Below are positions 3,264 through 27,256 of a stretch of DNA of 64,000 nt, piece by piece; positions within the stretch are counted from its first letter, which is position 1, and each line of letters opens with the position of its first letter. A model generated the notes under the pieces. That model had not been told where the DNA came from, did not search any database, and saw only the letters and a program-made list of their open reading frames with translations. Origin of the DNA: Escherichia coli (GTDB lineage: Bacteria > Pseudomonadota > Gammaproteobacteria > Enterobacterales > Enterobacteriaceae); the NCBI RefSeq assembly GCF_001677475.2, contig NZ_CP015229.1. One strand, written 5' to 3'. The position numbers were made by a program, and so were the translations under genes.

Positions 3264-3480
3264 GAATCCTCCCGGCCGGGATAATGTACTGAATAAGATA
3301 AGGAGTGAGCGGAAGTCCCGAAACACAAGGGAAAAAGACAACCACCCGCAAAAAAGAAATACACTCCTCACAGTTGCGCAGGGTGATTACTGTAAGGTAT
3401 TATTCGCAGCGTTAATTAATTGTTCATATTGCTTTTCTTCTTGCCAACCGCTCTTCCCGGGGGCGGCTTTTTTTGCATGT

Positions 3481-3504
3481 AAAAGGCCCCTGCTATGAGG
3501 GGCC
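3481..3504 (-). terminator. Putative intrinsic terminator upstream of esterase gene
   Basis: Minus-strand hairpin GGCCCCT-catagc-AGGGGCC followed by TTTT. Confidence 0.4.
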
Positions 3505-3752
3505 CTAGTATATGCCTAATCTCTGTATACTGCATGGTGCCGGGTGCCTCCCGGTGAGTTCGGCCTGGTGCCACCAAACCCGCGTATTCTCGCTTACGAT
3601 CATCAAAGAGATCATACCATTCACCAGTCGCCCCTCCGCACAGGGGGATTCACCATGCCAGTTTCTTTTAACAAACTCCCCGCAAATCAGACAACTGTCA
3701 ACTGTCTGAATTGTGAGACATTTAAAATTTTCGGGGCATGACTGATACCCGG

Positions 3753-4514: not shown

Positions 4515-4591
4515 TGGCGCGTTGTACTAGATTCGAACCAGTGACCGATTGCTTAGAAGGCAATTGCTCTGTCCGGCTGAGCTAACAACGC
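4515..4591 (-). tRNA. argO: tRNA-Arg (anticodon UCU)
   Basis: 77-nt cloverleaf on minus strand: acceptor GCGTTGT/ACAACGC, anticodon loop CU-UCU-AA, TTCGAAT T-loop, encoded CCA. Confidence 0.8.
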
Positions 4592-4604
4592 AGTGTACAG
4601 ATAA

Positions 4605-4681
4605 TGGACCGCCATCGAGGACTCGAACCCCGCGCAACCAGCTTCGAAGGCTGGCGCTCTATCCCGATGAGCTAATGGCGG
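4605..4681 (-). tRNA. argN: tRNA-Arg (anticodon UCG)
   Basis: 77-nt cloverleaf on minus strand: anticodon stem CCAGC/GCTGG, loop CU-UCG-AA, TTCGAGT T-loop, encoded CCA; acceptor stem begins with C (unusual). Confidence 0.7.
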
Positions 4682-4688
4682 TAGGTGA

Positions 4689-4764
4689 TGGTGGCCCTTG
4701 CTGGATTTGAACCAGCGACCTGGCGATTATGAGTCGCTCGCTCTCACCACTGAGCTAAAGGGCC
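4689..4764 (-). tRNA. ileZ: tRNA-Ile2 type (anticodon CAU)
   Basis: 76-nt cloverleaf GGCCCTTTAGCTCAGTGG...anticodon loop CU-CAU-AA...GGGCCACCA; CAU anticodon could also be Met, Ile2 inferred from Stx-phage ileZ-argN-argO arrangement. Confidence 0.7.
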
Positions 4765-9986: not shown

Positions 9987-10240
9987 AGTTTTATGTCCTT
10001 TCGATTCGTTCAGATCACCCCGTGTTCAGCAGGGCGGTCGGGTACTTGAACACCGTCGAAAGTTCGGCCCGCATCCTTAGCCTTGCGGCTGTTTTTCGGT
10101 ATACGCGCTACCCGACCATATCTGAAAAATGGACATAAAAAATCCGCATGACTGACGGGCGCGGTTTCCGCTTTCGAAGGTGTGTTCAGCACCATGGAGC
10201 GGAATATATCCCCGCTAATGCGGATTTGTCAAATCTGGCC

Positions 10241-10906: not shown

Positions 10907-11064
10907 AATGACGCCCTCTAGTGGTTTCTAAACTATCACCACCGTAAGGTTCCAATCATCGGGTGGTGAGACGCACAGGGTTGGAACTACCGGGAAACCG
11001 ACCGGCGAGCTTTTCAGCTCCCCCATGCGCCCCACCATAATTCAGATGTGCGCGTGCATACGAC

Positions 11065-11089
11065 AATAAAAAACACGCTCGCGGCGTGT
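11065..11089 (-). terminator. Intrinsic terminator upstream of antirepressor gene
   Basis: Minus-strand hairpin ACACGC-cgcga-GCGTGT followed by TTTTTATT. Confidence 0.4.
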
Positions 11090-11173
11090 GTTTGTCGCGG
11101 TCTCTATCCGGGGTTCCAATCCCGACGGCCAACTCGACCGTGCGAAGAATATAATCCCGGATAAGTAATTACG

Positions 11174-15344: not shown

Positions 15345-16427
15345 TTACCCCCTGAACCCCGGCGGAATTTCGGTGTCCGGTTCAGAAATGTGGTTCACGC
15401 AACGCTGGCTGACTGCGCCAGCCTTCGGCAGCGACCACGGATTTTCGAAATTCCTGTTCGGGCCAAAAAACGTCGATGCCTGCTGAACAAATTCAGTTCC
15501 CGCTTTCCCGGTAGCCTCCAGGTATCTTGCGTAACGCCTCACGCCATCCAGCACGACATCCGGTGACACCCCTTCGCGTAATCTGGCCCTCCAGGCATTG
15601 AACGCGGATTTCTTCGGGTTTGACCCTGCCCGATGCGGATATTCACGCCAGACCCGTTCGAACACGTCAGGATAATCAACTCGTCCCGCAGACGGTCCCG
15701 GCATCGCCCGGGTTAACCCAATCGGCTTCCCGCTCATCGCGGAATCGGCTTCAGGCTGCTGCGGTTGGTGTTGTTGCTCCGGTTCGACGAGCAGCACCTG
15801 CTGCACACAACGCCCGGAATCTGCTTCCGGTGTCATGCCAGCTGGTCCTGGACGTTCAGTCAGAACGGGACAAGAATCCACCAGTGGGTCCGTGGCGATT
15901 TTTTCGCCATGGACCAGAAGGGTTTTATCTCTTTCCTGTTCCTGTTCCTGTTCCTGTTCTTGGCTTGAAAGGGGCTCTGAAGGGGCTTCAATTTTCCGAC
16001 ATGATTCACGTCTGACATCCAGGTGGAAATCATCCTTATATCTATCATAAAAGGATGATAAAAAAGGATTTTCCAGCAACGCGGAATATTCATTTCTTAC
16101 CCCAGCACAACGGTTATCGCCTGGTTTCAGCGCTTCACCAACCTGCCATGCTGCCATTTCATGCACCCATACAACCTCAGAATCATGGTCATAGCTGCAA
16201 AAACCAGCCTCGCAAGCCATTTGAAGCCCCTTAGAAGCCCCTTCAGGATCAAGTCCGGTTTCGTGAGCAATGTACAAAACAGGCAGGTAATAAAGGCCCA
16301 GCATATTGGAATGAGGCGAGGTCATCATATACAACGCCACTACCATACATTCCGGACCAGACTTCCTTAGTTTTCGCCCTGTATCGCCTAACCAGAACTG
16401 AGGTGAAATTGTTGCGTAATTACGCAT
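15345..16427 (-). CDS. Replication initiator (lambda O-like replisome organizer)
   Basis: 360-aa ORF between cII and DnaC-like gene; internal repeats and an AT-rich tract inside the coding region resemble an O-gene-embedded origin. Confidence 0.55.
   Translation of the reverse strand: MRNYATISPQFWLGDTGRKLRKSGPECMVVALYMMTSPHSNMLGLYYLPVLYIAHETGLDPEGASKGLQMACEAGFCSYDHDSEVVWVHEMAAWQVGEALKPGDNRCAGVRNEYSALLENPFLSSFYDRYKDDFHLDVRRESCRKIEAPSEPLSSQEQEQEQEQERDKTLLVHGEKIATDPLVDSCPVLTERPGPAGMTPEADSGRCVQQVLLVEPEQQHQPQQPEADSAMSGKPIGLTRAMPGPSAGRVDYPDVFERVWREYPHRAGSNPKKSAFNAWRARLREGVSPDVVLDGVRRYARYLEATGKAGTEFVQQASTFFGPNRNFENPWSLPKAGAVSQRCVNHISEPDTEIPPGFRG
15935..15958. repeat. Hexanucleotide tandem repeat (CCTGTT)x4 inside replication gene
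   Basis: Perfect four-unit repeat; encodes (EQ)n on minus strand. Confidence 0.9.
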
Positions 16428-16460
16428 AGTCCCCTCGCATACAAGATTTACTCCATACCG

Positions 16461-16610
16461 CAGACGGTCCCGGTATCTCCCGGGTTAACCCAATCGGCTT
16501 CAGGCTGCTGCGGTTGGTGTGACTGCACATTGGTGTGACTGCACATCTTCACAGACGGTCCCGGTATCTCCGGGTTAACCCAATCGGCTTCAGGCTGCTG
16601 CGGTTGGTGT
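16461..16610. repeat. Two direct copies of a ~60-bp repeat, third copy at 15689-15775 inside the replication gene; includes tandem 15-bp repeat
   Basis: cagacggtcccggtatctc(c)cgggttaacccaatcggcttcaggctgctgcggttggtgt at 16461-16520 and 16552-16610; ggtgtgactgcacat duplicated at 16516-16545. Confidence 0.85.
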
Positions 16611-16680
16611 TGTTGCTGGCGAAATTCTTCCAGATGTGGCAGAATTATTACCGTGTATTGCTCCATGCCCTGCCTGAATA

Positions 16681-17360: not shown

Positions 17361-17440
17361 TAATTTAGTTAACTTCGAGTTAATGTTAACTATTAGCTGA
17401 CAGTTATGTCAACTATGTTTGATAATTAACGTATGGTTAA
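17361..17440. promoter_or_regulatory. Divergent cro/cI promoter-operator region (OR)
   Basis: Two perfect TTAAC-N5-GTTAA palindromes (17369-17383, 17426-17440); rc TTGACA at 17407-17412 for cro; CTGACA-18bp-GATAAT ending 7 nt before cI ATG. Confidence 0.5.
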
Positions 17441-18203
17441 AAAAGATGAACTAAAAGAAGCGTTCTCAAAGAGACTACTACAGGCATTATTAGATGCAGG
17501 TGTGGGCGGACGCGGTCAGGCTAAGCGGATTCAGAATGCAATGAAACTGCGAGGCATTGATATCTCTGAACCGGGGATCTGGAAATGGCTTAATTCTGCA
17601 TCAATTCCAGAAAAAACAAGTATTTTGGCACTTAGTGACTGGCTTTCCGTGAGGCCGGAGTGGTTGGAGTATGGCAGTAACGAGCCATCCGTAAAACAGC
17701 GACCTTCAATTCCAAACGAATCAGAATGGGGTTCCCTTGAAACTTGGGACAGAAATACACCACTACGAGATGATGAAGTTGAGGTGCCATATCTGAAAGA
17801 CATTGAGTTTGCATGCGGTGACGGAAGAGTTCATTGCGAAGATCATAATGGTTTTAAATTACGCTTCTCAAAAGCAACCCTGCGCCGTGTCGGAGCTAAC
17901 AGTGATGGTTCTGGTGTGCTTTGTTTTCCGGCTACTGGTGATAGCATGGAGCCCGTGATACCAGATGGAACAACAATCGCAGTAGACACAAACAACAAAC
18001 GTATTGTTGACGGCAAACTCTACGCCATCGCACAGCCTGGTGTCGGTGATGAAAAACTGAAGCGTATAAAACTATTGTACAGACGCCCCGGTGGAAAACT
18101 AATCATACGCAGTTATAACAGTGAAGAGTACCCTGACGAAGAAGCAGATACTCAAAGCGTGGAGATTATCGGAAAAGTTTTCTGGTATTCAGTTCTGCTT
18201 TAG
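17433..18203 (+). CDS. cI: CI-type prophage repressor (HTH N-terminus, S24 LexA-like C-terminus)
   Basis: 256-aa ORF with GDSMEP active-site motif and K-containing LexA-like C-terminal domain. Confidence 0.85.
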   Translation: MVKKDELKEAFSKRLLQALLDAGVGGRGQAKRIQNAMKLRGIDISEPGIWKWLNSASIPEKTSILALSDWLSVRPEWLEYGSNEPSVKQRPSIPNESEWGSLETWDRNTPLRDDEVEVPYLKDIEFACGDGRVHCEDHNGFKLRFSKATLRRVGANSDGSGVLCFPATGDSMEPVIPDGTTIAVDTNNKRIVDGKLYAIAQPGVGDEKLKRIKLLYRRPGGKLIIRSYNSEEYPDEEADTQSVEIIGKVFWYSVLL

Positions 18204-18213
18204 CCCCTCTCCC

Positions 18214-18237
18214 CCCGGCCTCAGAGCCGGGTTTTTT
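18214..18237 (+). terminator. Intrinsic terminator after cI
   Basis: Hairpin CCCGGC-ctcaga-GCCGGG followed by TTTTTT. Confidence 0.55.
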
Positions 18238-18366: not shown

Positions 18367-18409
18367 TTAACTTTTGGTTATTGACTAATGCTAACCAACA
18401 GTTAATAAT
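18367..18409 (+). promoter_or_regulatory. Candidate pL with operator half-sites (OL)
   Basis: TTGACT(18381-18386)-17bp-AATAAT(18404-18409); operator-like TTAAC-N5-GTTAT (18367-18381) and TAAC-N5-GTTA (18392-18404). Confidence 0.4.
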
Positions 18410-18473: not shown

Positions 18474-18599
18474 AACACTCGACTACGTGGCTGCAAAGCC
18501 AGATCGCCCAACCGCATAAGCTGTCGGGTGCAATGCCGAAGCAATCATCTCAGGGGAGGCTTCGAGATTGCATCGCCAAAGTTTATTCGGGAGAAATCT

Positions 18600-18872
18600 A
18601 TGTCCAGAAAAACAGAATTTAAAGGCACCGCAGCTTCCCGCCGCAGAGCACGCAGGGCCGAGCTTCAGGGTCTGGAGGCATCAAGCGCTGATAAACTGCA
18701 CCGCCCCACACCTTCACGGGTGTACTTACAGTGCAAACGCAAAGCCGCAATGCGAGCTGAAGTAGTCACGATAACGACATTAACCAGAAAATATGAAGGC
18801 TCTACTTGTCTTCCAAACACTGCACTTTACGCAGCTGGCTATCGCAAATCAGGAACAATAACAGCGAGGTGA
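18600..18872 (+). CDS. N-like antiterminator with arginine-rich motif
   Basis: 90-aa ORF; N-terminal TAASRRRARRAELQGLE resembles lambda N ARM (QTRRRERRAEKQAQW); first gene right of cI. Confidence 0.55.
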   Translation: MSRKTEFKGTAASRRRARRAELQGLEASSADKLHRPTPSRVYLQCKRKAAMRAEVVTITTLTRKYEGSTCLPNTALYAAGYRKSGTITAR

Positions 18873-18875
18873 TTG

Positions 18876-19589
18876 ATGACCACGCCTTCAGTTTTGCCGC
18901 AAAAATTATGGCGTCCGCTTGCAGAGATTAAAAACTTCGTTGAAAAAATGCCTGATGGTGTTCGCCTTACGGAGGTTACAAAAAAAGTTAAGACGTTTGC
19001 CGAACTGTCAGGAAAAGAGAGAAACCAGCTCATCGATTTTATCGATAAACGGGAAAGCATCATTGTATTTAAGGTCAGAAAAGAAGGTTCTGGTAACGGA
19101 GTAACCTTTTTCCGCCACAAAAAATATGGATATCCCAAACGGGAAGGAAACGTCACAATCATTAAGGACCTTCAATCAAAATTATGTACCAAATGCGGGC
19201 AGACAAAATCAGTCAATGATTTTTATTCAGATGCCAGCAAGCGTGACGGGAGAGCCATTTATTGCAAGAAGTGCGAATCTGCAATGAAACGCTCACGCAG
19301 AGAATGCAACAAATTAATTCTGCAACAACAGGAACCTGAAATGAATAACCTCAAAGCAGTATCACCTTCACCAGAAACACTCAGAAAACAGGCTGAAGAA
19401 TTGCTGAAAGCCGCCGAAATTGCGGAGAAAAAACGCCAGGAAGATGATGTATTCAACAAAAAACTTGCGCCCTTAAAACTTGAAATTCTTCAGGCCGCCG
19501 GAAAAATGCAGCTTAAACTGGACGAATTCATCGACTGTATGGATGAAATGAATAAAGCAGTTCAGAAGCTTAAAGAGCTGACCGCCTGA
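18876..19589 (+). CDS. Hypothetical protein with Cys4 zinc-ribbon and C-terminal coiled coil (237 aa)
   Basis: CTKCGQ...CKKCES; GAGGTG upstream of ATG; follows N stop directly. Confidence 0.5.
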   Translation: MTTPSVLPQKLWRPLAEIKNFVEKMPDGVRLTEVTKKVKTFAELSGKERNQLIDFIDKRESIIVFKVRKEGSGNGVTFFRHKKYGYPKREGNVTIIKDLQSKLCTKCGQTKSVNDFYSDASKRDGRAIYCKKCESAMKRSRRECNKLILQQQEPEMNNLKAVSPSPETLRKQAEELLKAAEIAEKKRQEDDVFNKKLAPLKLEILQAAGKMQLKLDEFIDCMDEMNKAVQKLKELTA

Positions 19590-19620
19590 TATTAATAAAT
19601 TGCAACTACCGGAGTTAACT

Positions 19621-19977
19621 ATGAACGAAACAGAACTGAAGCACATTATCGCCCTGCTTCTGGAAGATGCCAGACAGGTTTATCGACTTAGCCCAAACTC
19701 CGCAACGCAGGAACGCATCCGGATGGCAGAAAAAGCGCTGAAACAGGAGAGTGAAAATAACATATCCGAAGTTAGCGCGAATGGTGAAAATGAAGCAATA
19801 GAAATAAACAGCAATATCAGCGACGGCGTAATAGCTTCATCCCACAAGACAATTCTCATGGGCGCACGACTTCTGGAGGTGATTACGAGTGAGCTTGAAA
19901 AGAACGGCATCAAGCCCACCCCTTGTTATTTAGAGTGTGTGTTAAATGTTATTGCTTACTCGATGTTCCGTCGGTGA
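19621..19977 (+). CDS. Hypothetical protein (~118 aa)
   Basis: ORF; start taken at MNETELKH. Confidence 0.45.
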   Translation: MNETELKHIIALLLEDARQVYRLSPNSATQERIRMAEKALKQESENNISEVSANGENEAIEINSNISDGVIASSHKTILMGARLLEVITSELEKNGIKPTPCYLECVLNVIAYSMFRR

Positions 19978-20090
19978 CAGATGAAAGTTTTCGATCAAGG
20001 AATGTTTCAAGTGCATCGTAAATAATGGAAATCGCCCCAGACGCCTGAGTAACACCCCCGCAGCAACATCCATGTATCAATATCCTCTTT

Positions 20091-20132
20091 GGCGGACATC
20101 GGTTTGCCGATTACTGATGTCCGCCCTTTTTT
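20091..20132 (+). terminator. Intrinsic terminator inside accessory block
   Basis: Hairpin GGCGGACATC-15nt-GATGTCCGCC followed by CTTTTTT. Confidence 0.5.
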
Positions 20133-20290
20133 AAAGTGAATTTTATGATGCGGTGAATGCGGCTATGCGCACGCGGAACAGTTAAACCGACAGGATGTCA
20201 CGGAAAATCATCATCCCCTGCTCCGGCGTTAATTGTTAACTGGTTAACGTCACCTGGAGGCACCAGGCACCGCATCAACAAAGTTCATTT

Positions 20291-20530
20291 GTGAAAATGG
20301 AGATAATTATGATTGCTCATCACTTCGGAACTGATGAAATACCACGTCAGTGCGTGACACCTGGCGATTATGTTCTTCATGAAGGCCGCACATATATCGC
20401 TTCAGCAAACAATATTGAAAAGAGAAAGCTCTATATTCGTAGCCTGACTACAAAAACATGCATTACCAACTGCATGATTAAAGTATTCATCGGGCGCGAT
20501 GGCTTACCCGTAAAAGCAGAGTCGTTGTGA
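20291..20530 (+). CDS. Hypothetical protein (79 aa)
   Basis: ORF downstream of internal terminator; start uncertain. Confidence 0.35.
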
Positions 20531-20615
20531 CGAGCAATTAAAATACACCTTCCATATCTGTAACAGACAAGCCGAAATAAAAACCGCATTAATTATCAAT
20601 CACGGAAAAATCAAA

Positions 20616-21002
20616 ATGAAAGAACTTGCGCAAAATGAAATATTTTCCGAAACCAGTCCTGATGCAATAAATGAACTCAAAGAAATTGCAGAACGCATCA
20701 GTAAAATATGCAAAGAATACCAAATCGACTTTGTATTTTCTTTTTCAGTACTTACAGAGGTTGGAAATAACGAATATAAGGACAGTCGTTTTGTTTTATG
20801 TGGGTTAAATGGCAAAACACCAAGCCCATATATTCATGCTGCACGTGAAGTCGTCAGAAGCAACATTGGAGCACAACAAATCCATACACTGGCGCAGGCT
20901 CTTGAGTTTGCAAGAGAAAATTCTGAGTGCGACTGCCCTGAATGCCAGCACGAAAAGGAAAAAACAACTCACAAAACAGCAAACCAGGCAACCTTCCACT
21001 GA
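20616..21002 (+). CDS. Hypothetical protein with C-terminal Cys cluster (128 aa)
   Basis: ORF ending SECDCPECQHEKE. Confidence 0.45.
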   Translation: MKELAQNEIFSETSPDAINELKEIAERISKICKEYQIDFVFSFSVLTEVGNNEYKDSRFVLCGLNGKTPSPYIHAAREVVRSNIGAQQIHTLAQALEFARENSECDCPECQHEKEKTTHKTANQATFH

Positions 21003-21109
21003 AATAAAAATCCGGCAGCGCAGGCTACCGGATTTCTCCCTGCGTCACCGTATTCGGAGAAATCAGACAAAGGGCCGCTAATTCTAATCCAGCCAGAGGT
21101 TTAAATACA

Positions 21110-23179
21110 ATGAGCGCTGATAAACAGACTTTTGCACTACACTGCGAAGCAAAAAACGATAAAGTCAGAAAACGCCTTAGCATCAAAGGCGGTTTTTTCT
21201 GGACCGAGGCCAGAAAACTTTCTGTCGCAGTTTCCCGCTGCATTGCAGCCATGGACGATGCAGGCTACGACGAGGATGATTTCAAAAAACCCGTTCGCGT
21301 AAATTTCCCCGTCGTGAATGACCTTCCACCGGAAGGCGTGTTTGATACTGAATTCTGCAACCGCTATGAAAAAGGCGGTAACGATGGCATCACCATGATG
21401 GCTATCCCCTTCGATGACAACATCAACGGTGAAGATGCTACAACTGCTGGCGATGACAACGATAACCTGGACGGAACTATTCCGGATGATGTGGAGAAAA
21501 GCGAATCCCCGGACAGCGACGATGACTGTTCTGAGTGTGAAATTCCCGTCGCCACTCTGAGCCTTACTCATCGCTTCCTTCACCTCTTCTTCTTCAGCAA
21601 GGATGAAGATGGAAAATACCGGCATCACGCCACACCAGAACAACGTAATCAGGTGATTCGTCTGGAGATGGACACAGAAGACAGTTACCTTCAGAGCCTG
21701 CTTACTGCTGTGCGTTCACATCCAGAACTGGATAAGCTGACGAATTATCATCTGGGAAGACTGGCACAATCCGTTGGAAAGGCATTCTCTCACTCAACAA
21801 CCCGTCATATCAGCCCGGCCGAATTCGACAAGTTCATCTCCACCTGGATGAAAACAGACTATGTGGATCAGGGATTGCTGGCAAAAGAATGGCAGAAAGG
21901 AAATTGTGTTACAGGCATCACCCGTACGCCTTCCGGTGCTAACGCTGGCGGCGGAAATCTTACCGATCGTGGCGAAGGCTTTACCCACAATCAGGCATCA
22001 CTGGCGCGAGACATTGCCACTGGCGTTCTGGCCCGTTCAATGGATGTGGATATTTATAACCTGCACCCTGCACATGCAAAACGCGTTGAAGAAATCGTTG
22101 CAGAGAATAAACCGCCCTTTTCTGTTTTCCGTGACAAATTCATCGCCATGCCCGGTGGGCTGGATTATTCCCGCGCCATTGTGGTGGCTTCCGTGAAAGA
22201 AGCACCAATCGGCATTGAGGCTATCCCGGCGCGCGTGACTGAATATCTCAACAAAGTGTTGACCGAAACCGATCACGCTAACCCGGATCCGGAAATCGTA
22301 GAAATTGCCTGCGGTCGCTCATCAGCCCCGATGCCGCAGCGCGGAACAGCAGAAGAGATACATGACGATGAAGAAAAGCAGCAAACATCGGACGCAATGT
22401 CTAATGAACAGGCAGCGCCTGAATCAGTGGAAGAAATTCCAGTTAAACATAATGCGGACACGCAATCACTGGAAAATGTCTCATCTGTAGAAACGAAATA
22501 CCAGGAACTGAGAGCAGAACTCCATGAAGCCAGGAAAAACATTTCGCCCAAAAATCCTGTCGATGCAGACAAATTGCTGGCTGCCTCTCGTGGGGAGTTC
22601 GTTGAAGGTATCAGCGACCCAACCGACCCGAAGTGGGTGAAGGGGATCCAGACTCGCGACACTGAGGACCAGAATCAATCCAAAGTGGAACAAAATGAGC
22701 CAGAAGCAGAACAAAACAGCCCGGATACGCAACAAAACGGACCGGAAGAGCAACAGCCAGGGCCAGTAATGCAACAGGAAGTGGAAAAGGTTTGCACCGC
22801 ATGCGGTCAGAACGGTGGCGGGCATTGCCCTGACTGTGGTCCAGTAATGGGAGATGAAACTTACGCTGAAACTTTTGGAGAAAATGACACCGCTGCTGGA
22901 GATGACCAGGCACAAATGAAGAATGAATACATTCAGAAAAATGCTGTTGATACAACTCAGGAACACGATTCGGTTGTTCACATCGATCCAGATAGTGATG
23001 CTTCTGACAATAATGATGATTCAGAGCAAGCAGATTTCGACTGGAAAAGGCAACTCGTGCTTGCAGCCGTCTATGGTTTGTGCGCAAACCCTGCATGCGT
23101 CGCAACAGCGCCAGCAATCCCTGATATCGCAATCATGATTGCCAACAGGCTTGAAAATTTTGGAGGTGATAAATCATGA
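21110..23179 (+). CDS. Large highly acidic protein of unknown function (689 aa) with C-terminal Cys4 motif
   Basis: Multiple D/E-rich tracts ([50 protein letters not shown]), [16 protein letters not shown]; stop overlaps gam start. Confidence 0.6.
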
Positions 23180-23472
23180 ATGCCTGGCTTATCCCCGATC
23201 GCATTGAAGAGCAGTCATGGGCACGACACTACCGGCAAATTGCCCGTGAGGAAAACGAGACTGAACTGGCGGACGACCTGGAAAAAGGTCTGCCCCAGCA
23301 CCTGTTTGAATCGCTGTGCATCGATAATCTGCAACGTCATGGAGCCAGCAAAAAAGCCATTGCCCGTGCATTTGATGACGATGTCGATTTTCAGGAACGC
23401 ATGGCAGAACACATCCGGTACATGGTTGAAACCATTGCCCGCCACCAGATTTATATTGATTCAGAGGTATAA
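23176..23472 (+). CDS. gam: Gam (RecBCD inhibitor)
   Basis: 98-aa product near-identical to recalled lambda Gam C-terminal 98 aa (EAQSWARHY...[12 protein letters not shown]...MVETIA). Confidence 0.9.
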
Positions 23473-23477
23473 ACCAG

Positions 23478-24263
23478 ATGAGTACAGCTCTCGCAACGCT
23501 GGCAGGGAAGCTGGCTGAACGTGTCGGCATGGATTCTGTCGACCCACAGGAACTGATCACCACTCTTCGCCAGACTGCATTTAAAGGTGATGCCAGCGAT
23601 GCGCAGTTCATCGCATTGCTGATCGTTGCCAACCAGTACGGCCTTAATCCATGGACGAAAGAAATTTACGCCTTCCCTGATAAGCAGAACGGCATCGTTC
23701 CGGTGGTGGGCGTTGATGGCTGGTCCCGCATTATCAACGAAAACCAGCAGTTTGATGGCATGGACTTTGAGCAGGACGATGAATCCTGTACATGTCGGAT
23801 TTACCGCAAAGACCGTAATCATCCGATCTGTGTTACCGAATGGATGGATGAATGCCGCCGCGCACCATTCAAAACCCGCGAAGGCAGAGAAATCACGGGG
23901 CCCTGGCAGTCGCATCCCAAACGGATGTTACGGCATAAAGCCATGATTCAGTGTGCCCGTCTGGCCTTCGGATTTGCTGGTATCTATGACAAGGATGAAG
24001 CCGAACGCATTGTCGAAAATACCGCATATACTACAGAACGTCAGCCGGAACGCGACATCACCCCGGTTAACGAAGAGACCATGTCGGAAATTAACGCCCT
24101 TCTTACTTCCATGGAAAAAACGTGGGATGACGACCTCTTGCCGCTCTGTTCCCAGATATTTCGCCGCTACATTCGAGCGTCGTCAGAACTGTCCCAGGCC
24201 GAAGCAGAGAAGGTTCTTGGATTCCTGAAACAGAAAGCCACGGAGCAGAAGGTGGCAGCATGA
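23478..24263 (+). CDS. bet: Bet (Red-beta single-strand annealing protein)
   Basis: 261-aa product near-identical to recalled lambda Bet ([72 protein letters not shown]...). Confidence 0.92.
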
Positions 24264-24940
24264 CACCAGAAATTATCCTACAACGTACCGGGATCGACGT
24301 GAGAGGTGTCGAGCAGGGAGATTATGCATGGCAAAAATTACGGCTCGGGGTCATCACAGCTTCAGAAGTTCACAACGTGATAGCCAAACCCCGCTCCGGA
24401 AAGAAATGGCCTGACATGAAAATGTCCTACTTCCACACCCTGCTGGCTGAGGTCTGCACGGGTGTGGTCCCGGAAGTTAACGCCAAAGCCCTGGCATGGG
24501 GAAAACAGTACGAGAACGACGCCAGAGCCCTGTTTGAGTTTACTTCCGGCGTGAATGTTACTGAATCCCCGATCATCTATCGCGACGAAAGTATGCGTAC
24601 CGCCTGCTCTCCGGATGGATTATGCAGTGACGGCAACGGCCTTGAGCTGAAATGTCCGTTTACCTCCCGGGATTTCATGAAATTCCGGCTCGGTGGTTTC
24701 GAGGCCATAAAATCAGCTTACATGGCCCAGGTGCAATTCAGCATGTGGGTGACTCGAAAAGATGCCTGGTACTTCGCCAACTATGACCCGCGCATGAAGC
24801 GTGAAGGCCTGCATTATGTCGTGGTCGAGCGGGATGAAAAATACATGGCTGGTTTTGACGAGATGGTGCCGGAGTTCATCGAAAAAATGGACGAAGCACT
24901 GGCTGAAATTAGTTTTGTATTTGGGGAGCAATGGCGATAG
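24260..24940 (+). CDS. exo: Exo (lambda 5'-3' exonuclease)
   Basis: 226-aa product near-identical to recalled lambda Exo (...[33 protein letters not shown]...). Confidence 0.92.
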
Positions 24941-25273: not shown

Positions 25274-25645
25274 ATGGATTCACACAGTATCACCCTCAAA
25301 GAGGCCTGTCAGTTTCTCAAGATATCAAGGCCAACAGCTGTTAACTGGATACGAACGGGCCGACTACAGGCAACACGAAAAAATTCTTCCGGTAAAAGAT
25401 CACCTTATCTCACAACCCGGCAAGCCTGCATTGCAGCACTTCATTCACCGCTGCATACTGTCCAGGTGAGCGCGGGTGATGGCATAACAGAGGAAAGAAA
25501 ATGTCACTCTTCCGCAGAGGTGAAATATGGTACGCCTCGTACTCGCTCCCGGGCGGGAAGCGAATTAAGGAGTCTCTTGGCACAAAGGACAAGCAGCAAG
25601 CTCAGGAGTTGCACGACAAGCGAAAAGCAGAACTCTGGCGAGTAG
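25274..25645 (+). CDS. xis: Excisionase-like HTH protein
   Basis: [31 protein letters not shown] matches Xis/AlpA-type HTH; directly upstream of and overlapping int; C-terminal extent uncertain. Confidence 0.5.
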
Positions 25646-26664
25646 ACAGACTGGGGGATATGCCAGATGTCACTTTCGAAGAAGCCTGCCTGAGATGGCT
25701 TGAGGAAAAAGCCGACAAGAAATCCATCGATTCCGATAAATCCAGAATCGCATTCTGGATTGAGCATTTCGAGGGAATAAGGATTAAGGATATATCGGAG
25801 GCAATGATCTACTCAGTTATCAGCAAAGCGTATAACCGAAAAACAAAGGAGAGATGGAAGTTGCAGGTGGAGGCTGCATTAAGAAAAGGGAAAGAACCAC
25901 CAGCCTATATACCTAAATCGGTGAGCACGCAAACAAAAGCAACACACCTGGCAATGATCAAGGCTATTCTGCGCGCCGCAGAGCGAGACTGGAAATGGCT
26001 TGAAAAAGCACCTGTAATCAAAATACCTGCCGTAAAAAACAAACGCGTGAGATGGCTGGAAAAAGAAGAAGCCAGGAGACTCATTGATGCATGTTCTGAC
26101 CCCCTGAAATCTGTAGTTAAATTTGCATTGGCAACTGGCCTGAGGAGATCAAACATTATTAATCTGGAGTGGCAACAAATCGATATGCAGCGACGTGTTG
26201 CCTGGGTAAACCCTGAAGACAGTAAGTCAAACCGCGCTATTGGGGTCGCACTGAATGACACTGCCTGCAAGGTGTTGCGTGATCAAATAGGCAAACATCA
26301 CCGCTGGGTGTTTGTTTATACCACTGCTGCCAGAAGGCCTGACGGGACAATGACACCAAGCATCAGAAAGATGCGCCTGGACTATAACACATCGTGGTTA
26401 ACAGCATGTCGTCGGGCAGGAATTGAAAATTTCCGTTTTCATGACCTCCGCCATACCTGGGCCAGTTGGTTAATTCAGTCAGGTGTACCGCTGTCAGTAC
26501 TTCAGGAAATGGGCGGCTGGGAGTCTATCGAAATGGTGCGTAGGTACGCACACCTTGCACCTAATCATTTGACAGAGCACGCGAGGAAAATTGACGACAT
26601 ATTGGGTGACGATGTCCCAAATTTGTCCCACTCTGAGGTTTTTGAGGATGCAAAGAAAGCATAA
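25501..26664 (+). CDS. int: Tyrosine integrase
   Basis: 387-aa ORF with HDLRHTWAS...RRYAHL catalytic region; last phage gene before host junction. Confidence 0.85.
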
Positions 26665-26701
26665 GCAATTGAATTAGAATGAGTTAAGCTCACGCTTTCA
26701 A

Positions 26702-27256
26702 GTGGTGAGCAACAACTTTAAAGATCTTGGCCCGGAAGTCAGTTTCCGCCGTATTTATGAATATGCTGGCGGCGACTGGCAGGAAGATAATGGCGTCTGG
26801 CACCAGAACGTGTTCGCTTATTATCTCTCCATCTCCTGTAACCATTGCGATGACCCCGCATGTACAAAAGTCTGCCCCAGCGGCGCAATGCATAAGCGTG
26901 AAGATGGCTTTGTGGTGGTTGATGAAGATGTTTGTATCGGCTGCCGCTACTGCCACATGGCTTGTCCGTACGGCGCGCCACAGTACAATGCTGAAAAAGG
27001 GCACATGACGAAGTGCGATGGTTGTTATTCGCGCGTCGCCGAGGGGAAACAACCCATATGTGTCGAATCCTGCCCGCTGCGTGCACTTGAGTTCGGTCCA
27101 ATTGAAGAGCTGCGCCAGAAGCACGGCACTCTGGCTGCCGTTGCGCCACTGCCGCGCGCGCATTTCACAAAACCCAATATCGTTATCAAACCTAACGCCA
27201 ACAGCCGCCCGACCGGCGATACCACTGGTTATCTGGCTAACCCGGAGGAAGTGTAA
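26702..27256 (+). pseudogene. ynfG: ynfG 3' fragment (DmsB-like Fe-S subunit), 5'-truncated at prophage junction
   Basis: In-frame C-terminal ~180 aa of a DmsB-type ferredoxin (CNHCDDPAC..., CIGCRYCHMACP) with no upstream N-terminal Cys cluster; frame opens just after int. Confidence 0.6.

What the first reader, a model, noticed from the sequence alone, without database searches (positions are those of the whole stretch)
18876..23179. Uncharacterised accessory block between N and gam, including a 689-aa highly acidic protein
Between the N-like antiterminator and gam, lambda carries ral, sieB, kil and cIII. Here the slot holds five unrelated ORFs (18876-19589 with a Cys4 ribbon and coiled coil, 19621-19977, 20291-20530, 20616-21002 with a Cys cluster, 21110-23179) and no recognisable kil or cIII. 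The 689-aa protein is strongly acidic in long tracts, has a C-terminal CxxC...CxxC motif, and its stop overlaps the gam start, so it is co-transcribed with the Red genes from pL. Its position and DNA-mimic-like charge make an anti-restriction or anti-defence role plausible; this is the strongest candidate for an undescribed system.
Basis: partly seen in the sequence, partly recalled or inferred. Interest (0 to 1): 0.8.

Follow-up and report, generated by a model that had tools for sequence, protein, structure and literature searches.

The report
Nuclease-less RecE relative beside lambda Red genes
The large acidic protein is not an orphan: it is the mysterious front two-thirds of the RecE recombination exonuclease, with the nuclease replaced by a tiny helical domain, so databases that call it an exonuclease are wrong, though what it does is still unknown.

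Summary
The five ORFs exist as described and form the early-left (pL) operon of a lambdoid prophage. The reading "five unrelated ORFs, no kil, undescribed system" does not hold.

- **kil:** ORF 20291-20530 is KilR, 90% identical to the E. coli K-12 FtsZ inhibitor.
- **The 689-aa ORF:** it matches RecE (exonuclease VIII) residues ~43-546 at 55-59% identity. It lacks the PD-(D/E)XK nuclease domain.
- **Its C-terminus:** a conserved ~45-aa helical motif (QQLxxAAxxGLCANP) ends the protein instead. In the sister lineage P0121 this motif starts exactly at RecE residue 588. The same motif ends YdfE-like proteins and also occurs as free-standing phage mini-proteins.
- **Integrity:** the gene is intact, under purifying selection (dN/dS about 0.2), and its stop overlaps the gam start. 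It is common in E. coli and Shigella Stx-type phages, where it is mislabelled "exodeoxyribonuclease VIII".
- **Charge:** the acidity lies almost entirely in predicted disordered linkers, not on a folded DNA-mimic surface. No anti-defence homology was found.
- **Fold:** the confident 400-residue fold has no structural relative outside the RecE family.
- **Family:** relatives carry alternative C-terminal modules (5'-3' nuclease, 3'-5' exonuclease, RecT, others).

I favour a DNA-end or recombination accessory role, but this is inferred. ORFs 237, 118 and 128 remain uncharacterised.

The parts
18381..18409 (+). pL-like sigma-70 promoter candidate (TTGACT-17-AATAAT), downstream of the cI-like repressor gene (17433-18203) and its terminator (18214-18231)
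   Evidence: consensus scan only; position relative to repressor and N
18528..18872 (+). N-like antiterminator; the real start is probably internal, giving about 90 aa
   Evidence: phrog_271 E 3e-23; the near-identical neighbour in L014 carries Pfam N_peptide PF25694
18876..19589 (+). ORF237: uncharacterised. Central Cys4 zinc ribbon (aa ~100-145) and a C-terminal half that looks helical (not tested)
   Evidence: phrog_2539 (unknown function) E 6e-130. Ribbon-only matches to Lar-like, endonuclease VII and HNH families at E 1e-6 to 6e-10. No Pfam, NCBIfam, PADLOC or PDB match. Named 'hypothetical protein' in NCBI.
19621..19977 (+). ORF118: uncharacterised; widespread in E. coli prophages including O157:H7
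   Evidence: phrog_2982 (unknown function) E 5e-67; no other matches; seen on 1000 or more contigs
20091..20135 (+). Strong hairpin plus T-run (intrinsic-terminator-like), at the position of the 3' end of the Rac kilS sRNA upstream of kilR
   Evidence: RNAfold -23.6 kcal/mol; blastn aligns window 20114-20533 to K-12 Rac kilS 3' end + kilR at 83%
20291..20530 (+). kilR (FtsZ/septation inhibitor of Rac type); likely start ATG at 20309 (73 aa)
   Evidence: NF008465 155 bits (cut-off 92); phrog_294; 90% identity to K-12 KilR
20616..21002 (+). ORF128: uncharacterised. Occupies the slot of ydaE+racC in Rac but is unrelated to both by BLASTP. C-terminal CxCxxC cluster.
   Evidence: phrog_2016 (unknown function) E 2e-77; weak sub-threshold YnfU zinc-binding hit; no alignment to RacC or YdaE; no PDB match
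21110..23179 (+). 689-aa nuclease-less RecE-N/YdfE-family protein (whole gene including stop)
21110..21418 (+). aa 1-103: confidently modelled alpha/beta N-terminal domain (RecE-type; part of PF06630)
   Evidence: AF2 block-mean pLDDT 84-98 for residues 11-100; Pfam PF06630 over 55-197
21542..22354 (+). aa 145-415: all-helical domain holding the conserved core (aa ~240-415) shared by RecE and YdfE-like proteins. Motifs: T273, G276, AGG279-281, TD285-286, D312-x-D314, PG348-349, R355, E386, H389.
   Evidence: AF2 pLDDT above 90; conservation; dN/dS 0.08-0.16; aligned to P0183 (YdfE_N+YdfE_C)
22481..22639 (+). aa 458-510: conserved helical segment ([16 protein letters not shown]...DPKWVKGIQ), shared with RecE
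22787..22849 (+). aa 560-580: Cys4 zinc ribbon (C562, C565, C573, C576), conserved in RecE
   Evidence: direct reading; aligned with the K-12 RecE CNACGQTGGDNCPDCG segment
23027..23176 (+). aa 640-689: C-terminal helical-hairpin motif ([18 protein letters not shown]...[11 protein letters not shown]) that stands where RecE has its nuclease domain
   Evidence: alignment A2 with invariant A, A, G, N, P; domain boundary at RecE residue 588; dN/dS 0.18; helices 640-658 and 670-682; reciprocal PHROG matches
23176..23472 (+). gam (RecBCD inhibitor); its ATG overlaps the stop of the 689-aa gene
   Evidence: phrog_259 E 2e-55; Pfam Gam in L014; sequence
23478..24263 (+). bet (Red-beta annealase)
   Evidence: Pfam RecT family PF03837 in L014 and annotation in related phages
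24260..24940 (+). exo (lambda exonuclease, YqaJ family): the actual exonuclease of this operon
   Evidence: Pfam YqaJ PF09588 in L014 and annotation in related phages

Best explanation
Shown:
- The block is the pL early-left operon of a lambdoid prophage of Stx-phage type. Rac-type genes (kilR and the 5' two-thirds of recE) are joined to the lambda Red genes gam-bet-exo.
- The 689-aa protein consists of, in order: an alpha/beta N-domain, a helical core, a conserved helix, a Zn ribbon, acidic disordered linkers, and a ~45-aa helical-hairpin domain of the YdfE type.
- That last domain stands where RecE has its PD-(D/E)XK nuclease. The protein therefore lacks the only nuclease domain known in RecE; the exonuclease of this operon is lambda Exo.
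- The gene is intact, under purifying selection, and its stop overlaps the gam start.

Inferred (my estimate about 35-40%):
- The conserved N-module is a non-nucleolytic platform for phage DNA-end processing and recombination.
- In relatives it is covalently joined to a 5'-3' exonuclease, a 3'-5' exonuclease or an annealase.
- Here it acts in trans with Gam/Bet/Exo. The C-terminal hairpin and the flexible acidic linkers probably serve as protein-binding elements.
- This would be analogous to the way the N-terminal region of full-length RecE boosts linear-linear recombination.
For: Identity:
- PHROG 607 positions 1-618 of 883; NCBIfam RecE positions 1-593 of 877, 739 bits; PF06630.
- 59% identity to Rac-SA53 RecE residues 1-572 and 55% to K-12 RecE residues 43-546.

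No nuclease:
- No PDB hit for the 689-aa protein, while K-12 RecE hits 3H4R at residues 605-866 as a positive control.
- No DUF3799 domain.

Domain swap at the boundary:
- P0121 reads ...TGEVAD|IALTNLTWKQRL; RecE reads ...TGEVAD|PVIVEDIEPG.
- The C-motif is conserved at the extreme C-terminus in 22 of 84 diverged family representatives.

Selection and coupling:
- dN/dS is 0.19-0.24 for the whole gene, 0.08-0.16 for the core and 0.18 for the C-motif.
- ATGA overlap with gam.

Synteny with Red:
- The same arrangement occurs in 75/02 Stx, POCJ13, PhiR5_2, phiSTEC1589 and L008.
- 78 of 5426 complete E. coli genomes hold the tail-gam junction.

Fusion evidence for a DNA-processing link (the census of 84 representatives and the Pfam scan of 107 alignment members are two different counts):
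- 84-representative census: 21 carry a PD-(D/E)XK nuclease, 22 the C-motif, 14 a DEDD 3'-5' exonuclease and 2 RecT; the Pfam scan of the 107 members finds 21 DUF3799, 14 Rv2179c-like and 3 RecT.
- One further type sits between Gam and Sipho_Gp157.

Literature:
Against: - Relatives bearing the C-motif occur in four different prophage contexts with no recombinase in the operon at all. They are followed only by a small ORF, xis and int (P0151, P0183, P0208, P0195). The module evidently works without Red or RecET.
- No partner or activity was demonstrated.
- AF2 did not dock the C-motif onto the core (pLDDT 59-72, pTM 0.45).
- The fold has no informative structural relative.
- Conserved polar residues (DxD, TD, R, E..H) leave open an unrecognised enzymatic activity.
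- The RecT fusions are few and could be deletion artefacts.
Confidence: 0.5

Rival explanations
1. Host-takeover or other early function unrelated to recombination. The RecE-N/YdfE module acts on a host target, as its operon neighbours KilR, DicB and YdfD do. Its adjacency to, or fusion with, recombination enzymes would then reflect only its position at the distal end of the pL operon.
For: - YdfE-type and RecE-type C-motif proteins stand alone between kil/dicB-like genes and xis-int, with no recombinase in the operon.
- K-12 Qin has dicB-ydfD-ydfE.
- The highly variable C-terminal modules (at least five types) resemble arms-race modularity.
- The conserved DxD, TD, R and E..H residues in the core could be an active site.
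Against: - All identifiable fused modules are DNA-processing enzymes used in phage recombination.
- The N-terminal region affects RecET recombination outcome (PMC11611040).
- No toxicity or host-target data exist; the YdfE literature is empty.
Confidence: 0.25
2. One reading: an anti-restriction or anti-defence protein that works as an acidic DNA mimic or decoy.
For: - Net charge -60, pI 4.56.
- Early-left operons carry anti-defence genes, with Gam next door.
- RecE itself has been described as an anti-restriction factor and as a trigger of retron-Sen2, and the neighbouring Rac gene racC blocks the retron toxin (bioRxiv 10.1101/2020.06.22.160242).
- Modular C-termini are compatible with an arms race.
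Against: - -50 of the -60 net charge lies in four segments with pLDDT below 50, one of which evolves fast (dN/dS 0.54 for the one linker tested). The folded domains are about neutral. To my knowledge (not checked here), characterised DNA mimics such as Ocr and ArdA display charge on rigid folds.
- No match to PADLOC models (a defence-system library, so only a weak test) and no Ocr, ArdA or Ral family among the PHROG, Pfam or NCBIfam hits; the only Lar-like hit is the zinc ribbon of the neighbouring ORF237.
- The RecE effect on retron msDNA was reproduced in vitro with commercial truncated RecE (the nuclease fragment), which is the part absent here.
Confidence: 0.15
3. A decaying remnant: a recE gene truncated when gam-bet-exo replaced the nuclease domain and recT, now read through into junk sequence.
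For: - Mosaic junction close to the gam start: megablast matches to ordinary lambda-type gam start at 23218, inside gam.
- Score below the NCBIfam RecE cut-off.
Against: - Purifying selection includes the C-terminal motif.
- Length is conserved at ~680-700 aa in most of the 120 best clusters (109 of 120 are 663-700 aa), across hits of 77-98% identity.
- The tail is homologous to the C-terminus of diverged YdfE-type proteins and to free-standing mini-proteins.
- The stop overlaps the gam start, with a Shine-Dalgarno sequence just upstream.
Confidence: 0.05

Closest known systems
RecE (exodeoxyribonuclease VIII) of the Rac prophage, E. coli K-12 (866 aa)
   Same: - 55% identity over RecE residues 43-546, covering the N-domain, helical core, conserved helix and Cys4 ribbon.
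- Same operon position downstream of kilR.
- The N-terminal region is 'of unknown function' in RecE too.
   Different: - Lacks the PD-(D/E)XK nuclease (RecE 588/605-866; PDB 3H4R).
- Ends instead in a 45-aa helical motif.
- Followed by gam-bet-exo, not recT.
- Scores 739 bits against a cut-off of 1269 for the RecE equivalog model.
YdfE-like proteins of Qin-type prophages (Pfam YdfE_N PF27430 + YdfE_C PF27432; PHROG 26058, unknown function)
   Same: - Shares the conserved core (aa 238-415) and the C-terminal QQLxxAAxxGxCANP motif.
- Same place in the early-left operon, upstream of xis-int.
   Different: - The N-terminal ~200 residues are of RecE type (PF06630), not YdfE_N.
- Carries the RecE 'mid' helix and Zn ribbon.
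- Followed by the Red genes, whereas the YdfE-type loci examined have no recombinase.
- Precomputed Pfam for close relatives lists only PF06630.
Lambda Red early-left region (N-ral-sieB-kil-cIII-gam-bet-exo)
   Same: N-like antiterminator, a division inhibitor, and gam-bet-exo in the same order and orientation.
   Different: - The division inhibitor is Rac KilR, not lambda Kil.
- No cIII, ral or sieB was detected.
- Three uncharacterised ORFs and the RecE-N protein fill the slot.
Structured DNA-mimic anti-restriction proteins (Ocr, ArdA)
   Same: Strong net negative charge and early expression.
   Different: No sequence or fold similarity was found, and the charge lies in predicted-disordered linkers rather than on a rigid surface.

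Membership tests
RecE / exodeoxyribonuclease VIII (NCBIfam NF007259 equivalog) | N-terminal RecE region (Pfam PF06630 and downstream conserved core) | tested here: met
   PF06630 E 3e-12; 55-59% identity to RecE N-terminal ~550 residues
RecE / exodeoxyribonuclease VIII (NCBIfam NF007259 equivalog) | C-terminal PD-(D/E)XK 5'-3' exonuclease domain (Pfam DUF3799; PDB 3H4R; RecE 588/605-866) | tested here: not met
   No PDB hit, while K-12 RecE hits 3H4R as a positive control. No DUF3799. No alignment beyond residue 593.
RecE / exodeoxyribonuclease VIII (NCBIfam NF007259 equivalog) | Whole-protein score above the curated cut-off (1269 bits) | tested here: not met
   738.9 bits, covering model positions 1-593 of 877
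RecE / exodeoxyribonuclease VIII (NCBIfam NF007259 equivalog) | Paired with recT immediately downstream | tested here: not met
   Downstream genes are gam, bet and exo
YdfE-like (Pfam YdfE_N + YdfE_C; PHROG 26058) | Conserved central core and C-terminal QQLxxAAxxGxCANP helical motif at the extreme C-terminus | tested here: met
   BLASTP to P0183 aligns 238-415 and 645-683; alignment A2 has invariant A, A, G, N, P; C-motif against phrog_26058 positions 585-620 of 633, E 0.025 (weak), core E 1.5e-26
YdfE-like (Pfam YdfE_N + YdfE_C; PHROG 26058) | YdfE_N-type N-terminal domain, with Pfam YdfE HMMs matching | tested here: not met
   The N-terminus is RecE type. No BLASTP alignment to the K-12 YdfE fragment. 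Precomputed Pfam of close relatives lists only PF06630. The Pfam version available for scanning did not report the YdfE models.
KilR FtsZ inhibitor (NF008465), for ORF 20291-20530 | Score above the curated cut-off and near-full-length similarity to K-12 KilR | tested here: met
   155.3 bits against cut-off 92; 90% identity over 73 aa
DNA-mimic anti-restriction proteins (Ocr, ArdA type) | Homology to a known family, or a folded surface displaying DNA-like arrays of acidic residues | tested here: not met
   No Ocr, ArdA or Ral family among the PHROG, Pfam or NCBIfam hits, and no PADLOC hit (a defence-system library, so a weak test). Fold searches were uninformative. The acidic residues are concentrated in segments with pLDDT below 50.
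DNA-mimic anti-restriction proteins (Ocr, ArdA type) | Inhibition of restriction or defence systems in vivo | not testable with these tools
   Needs plating assays
Lar/Ral-like restriction alleviation, for ORF 18876-19589 | Full-length similarity to Lar (PHROG 5558 / Pfam Lar_restr_allev) | tested here: inconclusive
   Only the zinc ribbon (aa 99-163) matches phrog_5558 (E 2e-9), and it matches endonuclease VII and HNH ribbon regions equally well. No Pfam hit.

The most novel reading that the evidence does not exclude
[quoted passage not shown] Its C-terminus is a swappable effector slot that can hold a 5'-3' PD-(D/E)XK nuclease, a 3'-5' DEDD exonuclease, an annealase, other helical modules, or a 45-aa hairpin domain. 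That hairpin also circulates as a free-standing mini-protein in unrelated phages. The window shows the platform working in trans with lambda Red, so RecE would be only one fusion product of a broader, uncharacterised system that targets or organises DNA-end processing, or counters a host function.
Probability: 0.3. Interest if true: 0.6.

Novelty: new variant of a known kind. Interest (0 to 1): 0.4.

Why it matters
- **Annotation error.** Many database entries carry the label 'exodeoxyribonuclease VIII/VII' for a protein with no RecE-type nuclease domain: over 100 clusters at 90% identity, and 78 of 5426 complete E. coli genomes for this junction alone. This is a correctable, propagating error.
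- **A handle on an open question.** The function of RecE's N-terminal ~590 residues has been unknown since RecE was dissected, even though full-length RecE is the basis of linear-linear 'direct cloning' recombineering. A natural free-standing version encoded next to gam-bet-exo allows a clean genetic test: add it in trans to Red, or delete it from phages such as PhiR5_2 or 75/02 Stx.
- **Domain-level hypotheses.** The precise domain swap at residue 588, and the family's alternative C-terminal modules, can each be tested directly.

Tried and rejected
- **Intramolecular docking of the C-motif.** AF2 on a core-linker-C-motif fusion with a paired alignment gave a helical hairpin at pLDDT 59-72 and pTM 0.45. 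There was no confident docking, so the test is inconclusive.
- **ORF128 as a RacC or YdaE equivalent.** BLASTP found no similarity. The only hit was a sub-threshold YnfU zinc-motif match.
- **Direct similarity to the K-12 YdfE pseudogene fragment.** None by BLASTP. The link to the YdfE family rests on full-length YdfE-type proteins.
- **Defence or anti-defence libraries.** PADLOC gave nothing meaningful.
- **Literature.** Searches for YdfE, for nuclease-less RecE and for phage PhiR5_2 found no functional study. The first search was spoiled by prefix matching. Fu et al. 2012 is not held.
- **A Rad52/Sak-like annealase in the 'GRLRRL' C-terminal domain type (P0126).** This was my impression only. 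Pfam and a PDB profile search gave nothing, so it is not used as evidence.
- **cIII.** PHROG scans of the ORFs in the gaps between genes found no cIII family.

Full report
**1. Observation**

All five ORFs lie on the + strand at the stated coordinates. They sit between an N-like antiterminator (18528-18872; phrog_271) and gam-bet-exo (23176-24940). A DUF4222 gene and an integrase follow.

Upstream lie a cI-like S24 repressor (17433-18203), a terminator (18214-18231) and a pL-like promoter match (18381-18409). The block is therefore the early-left operon of a lambdoid prophage.

Near-identical DNA (97%) occurs in Shigella phages 75/02 Stx and POCJ13, and 92-93% identical DNA in phiSTEC1589-Stx1c and PhiR5_2.

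The 689-aa product has pI 4.56 (126 D+E, 66 K+R). It has a Cys4 ribbon at C562/C565/C573/C576. Its TGA overlaps the gam ATG, with GGAGG just upstream. These parts of the observation are confirmed.

**2.

ORF 20291-20530 is KilR. It scores 155 bits against NF008465 (cut-off 92) and is 90% identical to the K-12 Rac FtsZ inhibitor.

At the DNA level, window 20114-20533 aligns at 83% to K-12 Rac kilR plus the 3' end of the kilS sRNA region. A strong hairpin with a T-run lies at 20091-20135 (-23.6 kcal/mol).

The 689-aa ORF is not an orphan:
- PHROG 607 ('exonuclease'), positions 1-618 of 883, E 3e-256.
- NCBIfam RecE equivalog, positions 1-593 of 877. The score of 739 bits is below the 1269-bit cut-off.
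- Pfam PF06630.
- 59% identity to Rac-SA53 RecE residues 1-572 and 55% to K-12 RecE residues 43-546.

The exact sequence is in NCBI as 'exodeoxyribonuclease VIII / RecE family exodeoxyribonuclease'.

**3. It has no RecE nuclease domain**

Nothing aligns to RecE beyond residue ~593. The protein has no PDB sequence hit. As a positive control, K-12 RecE hits 3H4R over residues 605-866. No DUF3799/PDDEXK domain is found.

The last 96 residues occur, among 50,697 phage records, only in the six records of this phage group, always immediately upstream of gam.

**4. The C-terminus is a real domain, not read-through**

The final ~45 residues ([43 protein letters not shown]) are conserved at the extreme C-terminus of 22 diverged representatives. 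These share only 30-40% identity overall and are 490-730 aa long. The consensus is LTYxQQLTIAALQGLCANPA...DDlPxMA..LA, with invariant A, A, G, N, P.

In the sister lineage P0121 (68% identical, also followed by gam-bet-exo) the RecE-like linker continues up to ...DKTGEVAD and then switches to the motif. K-12 RecE reads ...DETGEVAD|PVIVEDIEPGIYYG at the same place. The switch is at RecE residue 588. To my knowledge (not checked here) this is the N-terminal limit of the truncated 'RecE588' enzyme.

Pairwise Nei-Gojobori dN/dS values:
- whole gene: 0.19-0.24
- conserved core: 0.08-0.16
- C-motif: 0.18
- acidic linker 594-639: 0.54

The ~680-700-aa length is kept in most of the 120 best clusters: 109 of 120 are 663-700 aa, across hits of 77-98% identity, and the rest are shorter, several of them labelled partial. 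78 of 5426 complete E. coli genomes hold the tail-gam junction at megablast sensitivity. The decaying-remnant explanation is therefore rejected.

**5. Family relationships**

Two diverged C-motif proteins (P0183, P0208) carry the Pfam families YdfE_N and YdfE_C. They share the core (aa 238-415) and the C-motif with the window protein. PHROG 26058 (unknown function) is this type.

The K-12 Qin ydfE pseudogene is the eponym and lies in dicB-ydfD-ydfE. Its N-terminal fragment does not align by BLASTP. The window protein is thus a hybrid: a RecE-type N-terminus and middle with a YdfE-type C-terminus.

Census of 84 family representatives of at least 450 aa that hold the core:

| C-terminal module | Representatives |
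|---|---|
| PD-(D/E)XK nuclease | 21 |
| C-motif | 22 |
| Rv2179c-like DEDD 3'-5' exonuclease (confirmed in P0123, residues 624-795) | 14 |
| RecT | 2 |
| Further conserved C-terminal type A | ~7 |
| Further conserved C-terminal type B | ~7 |

A separate Pfam scan of the 107 alignment members gives matching numbers: 21 DUF3799, 14 Rv2179c-like and 3 RecT. All 50 AFDB50 relatives listed are Enterobacterales.

**6. Genomic contexts**

| Form | Context |
|---|---|
| C-motif forms (window, 75/02, PhiR5_2, L008) | followed by gam-bet-exo |
| C-motif forms (P0151, P0183, P0208, P0195) | followed only by a 60-70-aa ORF, xis and int; no recombinase anywhere in the operon |
| DEDD-fused form (P0123) | KilR-YdaE-[gene]-xis-int |
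| One other C-terminal type (P0126) | between Gam and Sipho_Gp157 |

**7. Structure**

AF2 with 107 homologues gives mean pLDDT 73.8. Block-mean pLDDT is 84-98 over residues 11-100 (alpha/beta) and mostly above 90 (88-98) over residues 141-410 (all-helical). Helices are moderately confident at 458-476 and 486-493.

Disorder (pLDDT below 50) is predicted for 104-115, 130-135, 416-457, 511-559 and 577-643. The C-terminal hairpin has pLDDT of about 60.

Of the net -60 charge, -50 lies in the four disordered linkers, and the folded parts are near neutral. This argues against a structured DNA mimic.

Fold searches gave no informative relative:
- PDB Foldseek: nothing at E 0.001 or better.
- AFDB50: RecE family only.

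The AF2 test of core-to-C-motif docking was inconclusive.

Conserved polar residues in the core are T273, T285/D286, E/D301, D312/D314, R355, E386 and H389, next to a Gly-rich loop at 276-281. They could mark a binding or catalytic site.

**8. The C-motif elsewhere**

A profile of the motif finds free-standing 60-90-aa proteins in metagenomic phage contigs and cyanobacteria, for example ...GMTIRQQFVMAAMQGLCANP...ADAALAEE. They lie among early and DNA-metabolism genes.

These proteins match PHROG 2201 and, reciprocally, several of them (4 of the 8 scanned) match the C-terminus of PHROG 26058. All are of unknown function.

**9. Other ORFs**

ORF237 (phrog_2539), ORF118 (phrog_2982) and ORF128 (phrog_2016) belong to PHROG families of unknown function. 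They have no Pfam, NCBIfam, PADLOC or PDB match and are 'hypothetical protein' in NCBI.
- The zinc ribbon of ORF237 resembles ribbons in Lar-like, endonuclease VII and HNH families. This holds for the ribbon only.
- ORF128 occupies the ydaE/racC slot but is unrelated to both.
- No cIII was found.

**10. Interpretation**

Shown:
- The protein's identity, the absence of the nuclease domain and the precise domain replacement.
- Purifying selection and the stop-start overlap with gam.
- The modular architecture of the family.

Inferred:
- Every identifiable module fused to this N-module is a recombination or DNA-end enzyme.
- Full-length RecE outperforms its nuclease domain in linear-linear recombination (PMC11611040).
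- I therefore favour a non-nucleolytic platform or accessory role in DNA-end processing, acting here in trans with Red. I put this at about 35-40%.
- The stand-alone occurrences without any recombinase are the main counter-evidence. They keep a recombination-independent early or host-directed function alive, at about 25%.
RecE has been linked to anti-restriction and retron triggering. However, the in-vitro msDNA digestion there used commercial truncated RecE, the nuclease fragment that is missing here, and the charge argument is weak.

**11. Verdict**

This is a real, intact and common gene of a known family. It is mis-annotated in public records, and its function is unknown.

It is a new architectural variant rather than a new system. 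Interest is moderate, mainly because it offers a natural experiment on the long-unexplained RecE N-terminal region.

Noticed in passing
window 23027-23176; proteins P0292-P0362; loci L016-L018: The 45-aa C-terminal motif (QQLxxAAxxGLCANP...) also forms the core of free-standing 60-90-aa proteins, often starting ...PAYP.... They occur in metagenomic phage contigs and cyanobacteria, among early and DNA-metabolism genes. They match PHROG 2201 (unknown function) and have no Pfam family.
   Followed up: partly
proteins P0122, P0130, P0132, P0242, P0250 (E. coli/Shigella sister variants of the 689-aa protein): These variants extend about 8 residues past the window protein's end and finish in ...GVTDDEHMPDF or ...TSDERLPDF. 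This acidic tip recalls, from memory, the SSB C-terminal tail (DDDIPF). The window's own protein lacks the extension.
   Followed up: no
window 20091-20135 (+): A strong hairpin plus T-run (-23.6 kcal/mol) lies between ORF118 and kilR. It lines up with the 3' end of the Rac kilS sRNA, so a KilS-like sRNA or a tL-type terminator may be present. Rfam gave no hit there.
   Followed up: partly
loci L013 (P0123) and L020 (P0126): Family members carry other C-terminal modules. P0123 (805 aa) has an Rv2179c-like DEDD 3'-5' exonuclease and sits in KilR-YdaE-[gene]-xis-int with no annealase. P0126 (775 aa) has a conserved ~215-aa domain (KKSLTDAxKKALSxLGF...GRLRRL) and lies between Gam and Sipho_Gp157. 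That domain looked annealase-like to me, but Pfam and PDB profile searches gave nothing.
   Followed up: partly
public records for window 21110-23179 and homologues (NC_029120.1, KJ603229.1, PV340546.1, many WP_/E. coli entries): Nuclease-less proteins of ~680-700 aa are annotated 'exodeoxyribonuclease VIII', 'RecE family exodeoxyribonuclease' or even 'exonuclease VII'. This is a propagated mis-annotation.
   Followed up: yes
window 3475-3687, 4518-4764, 10028-10117, 10959-11141 (all - strand): Rfam gathering-threshold hits elsewhere in the prophage: STnc100 sRNA, three tRNA genes, sRNA-Xcc1, C4 antisense RNA and isrK.
   Followed up: no
window 15345-16666 (- strand): The replication-region ORF (15345-16427) and the next small ORF (16448-16666) share repeated peptide stretches (QQHQPQQPEAD...) and a QEQEQEQE run. 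This implies repeated DNA near the replication genes, possibly iterons.
   Followed up: no
window 21173-21217 (+): Terminator-like hairpins with T-runs lie about 60-100 nt inside the 5' end of the 689-aa gene. The scan total (14 sites) is not above the shuffled expectation (10.5 +/- 3.6), so this may be chance.
   Followed up: no
window 25501-27256: The prophage integrase is adjacent to a ynfG/dmsB-like 4Fe-4S gene (26702-27256). In the close relative L014 this gene is followed by dmsC-like genes, which marks the integration site.
   Followed up: no
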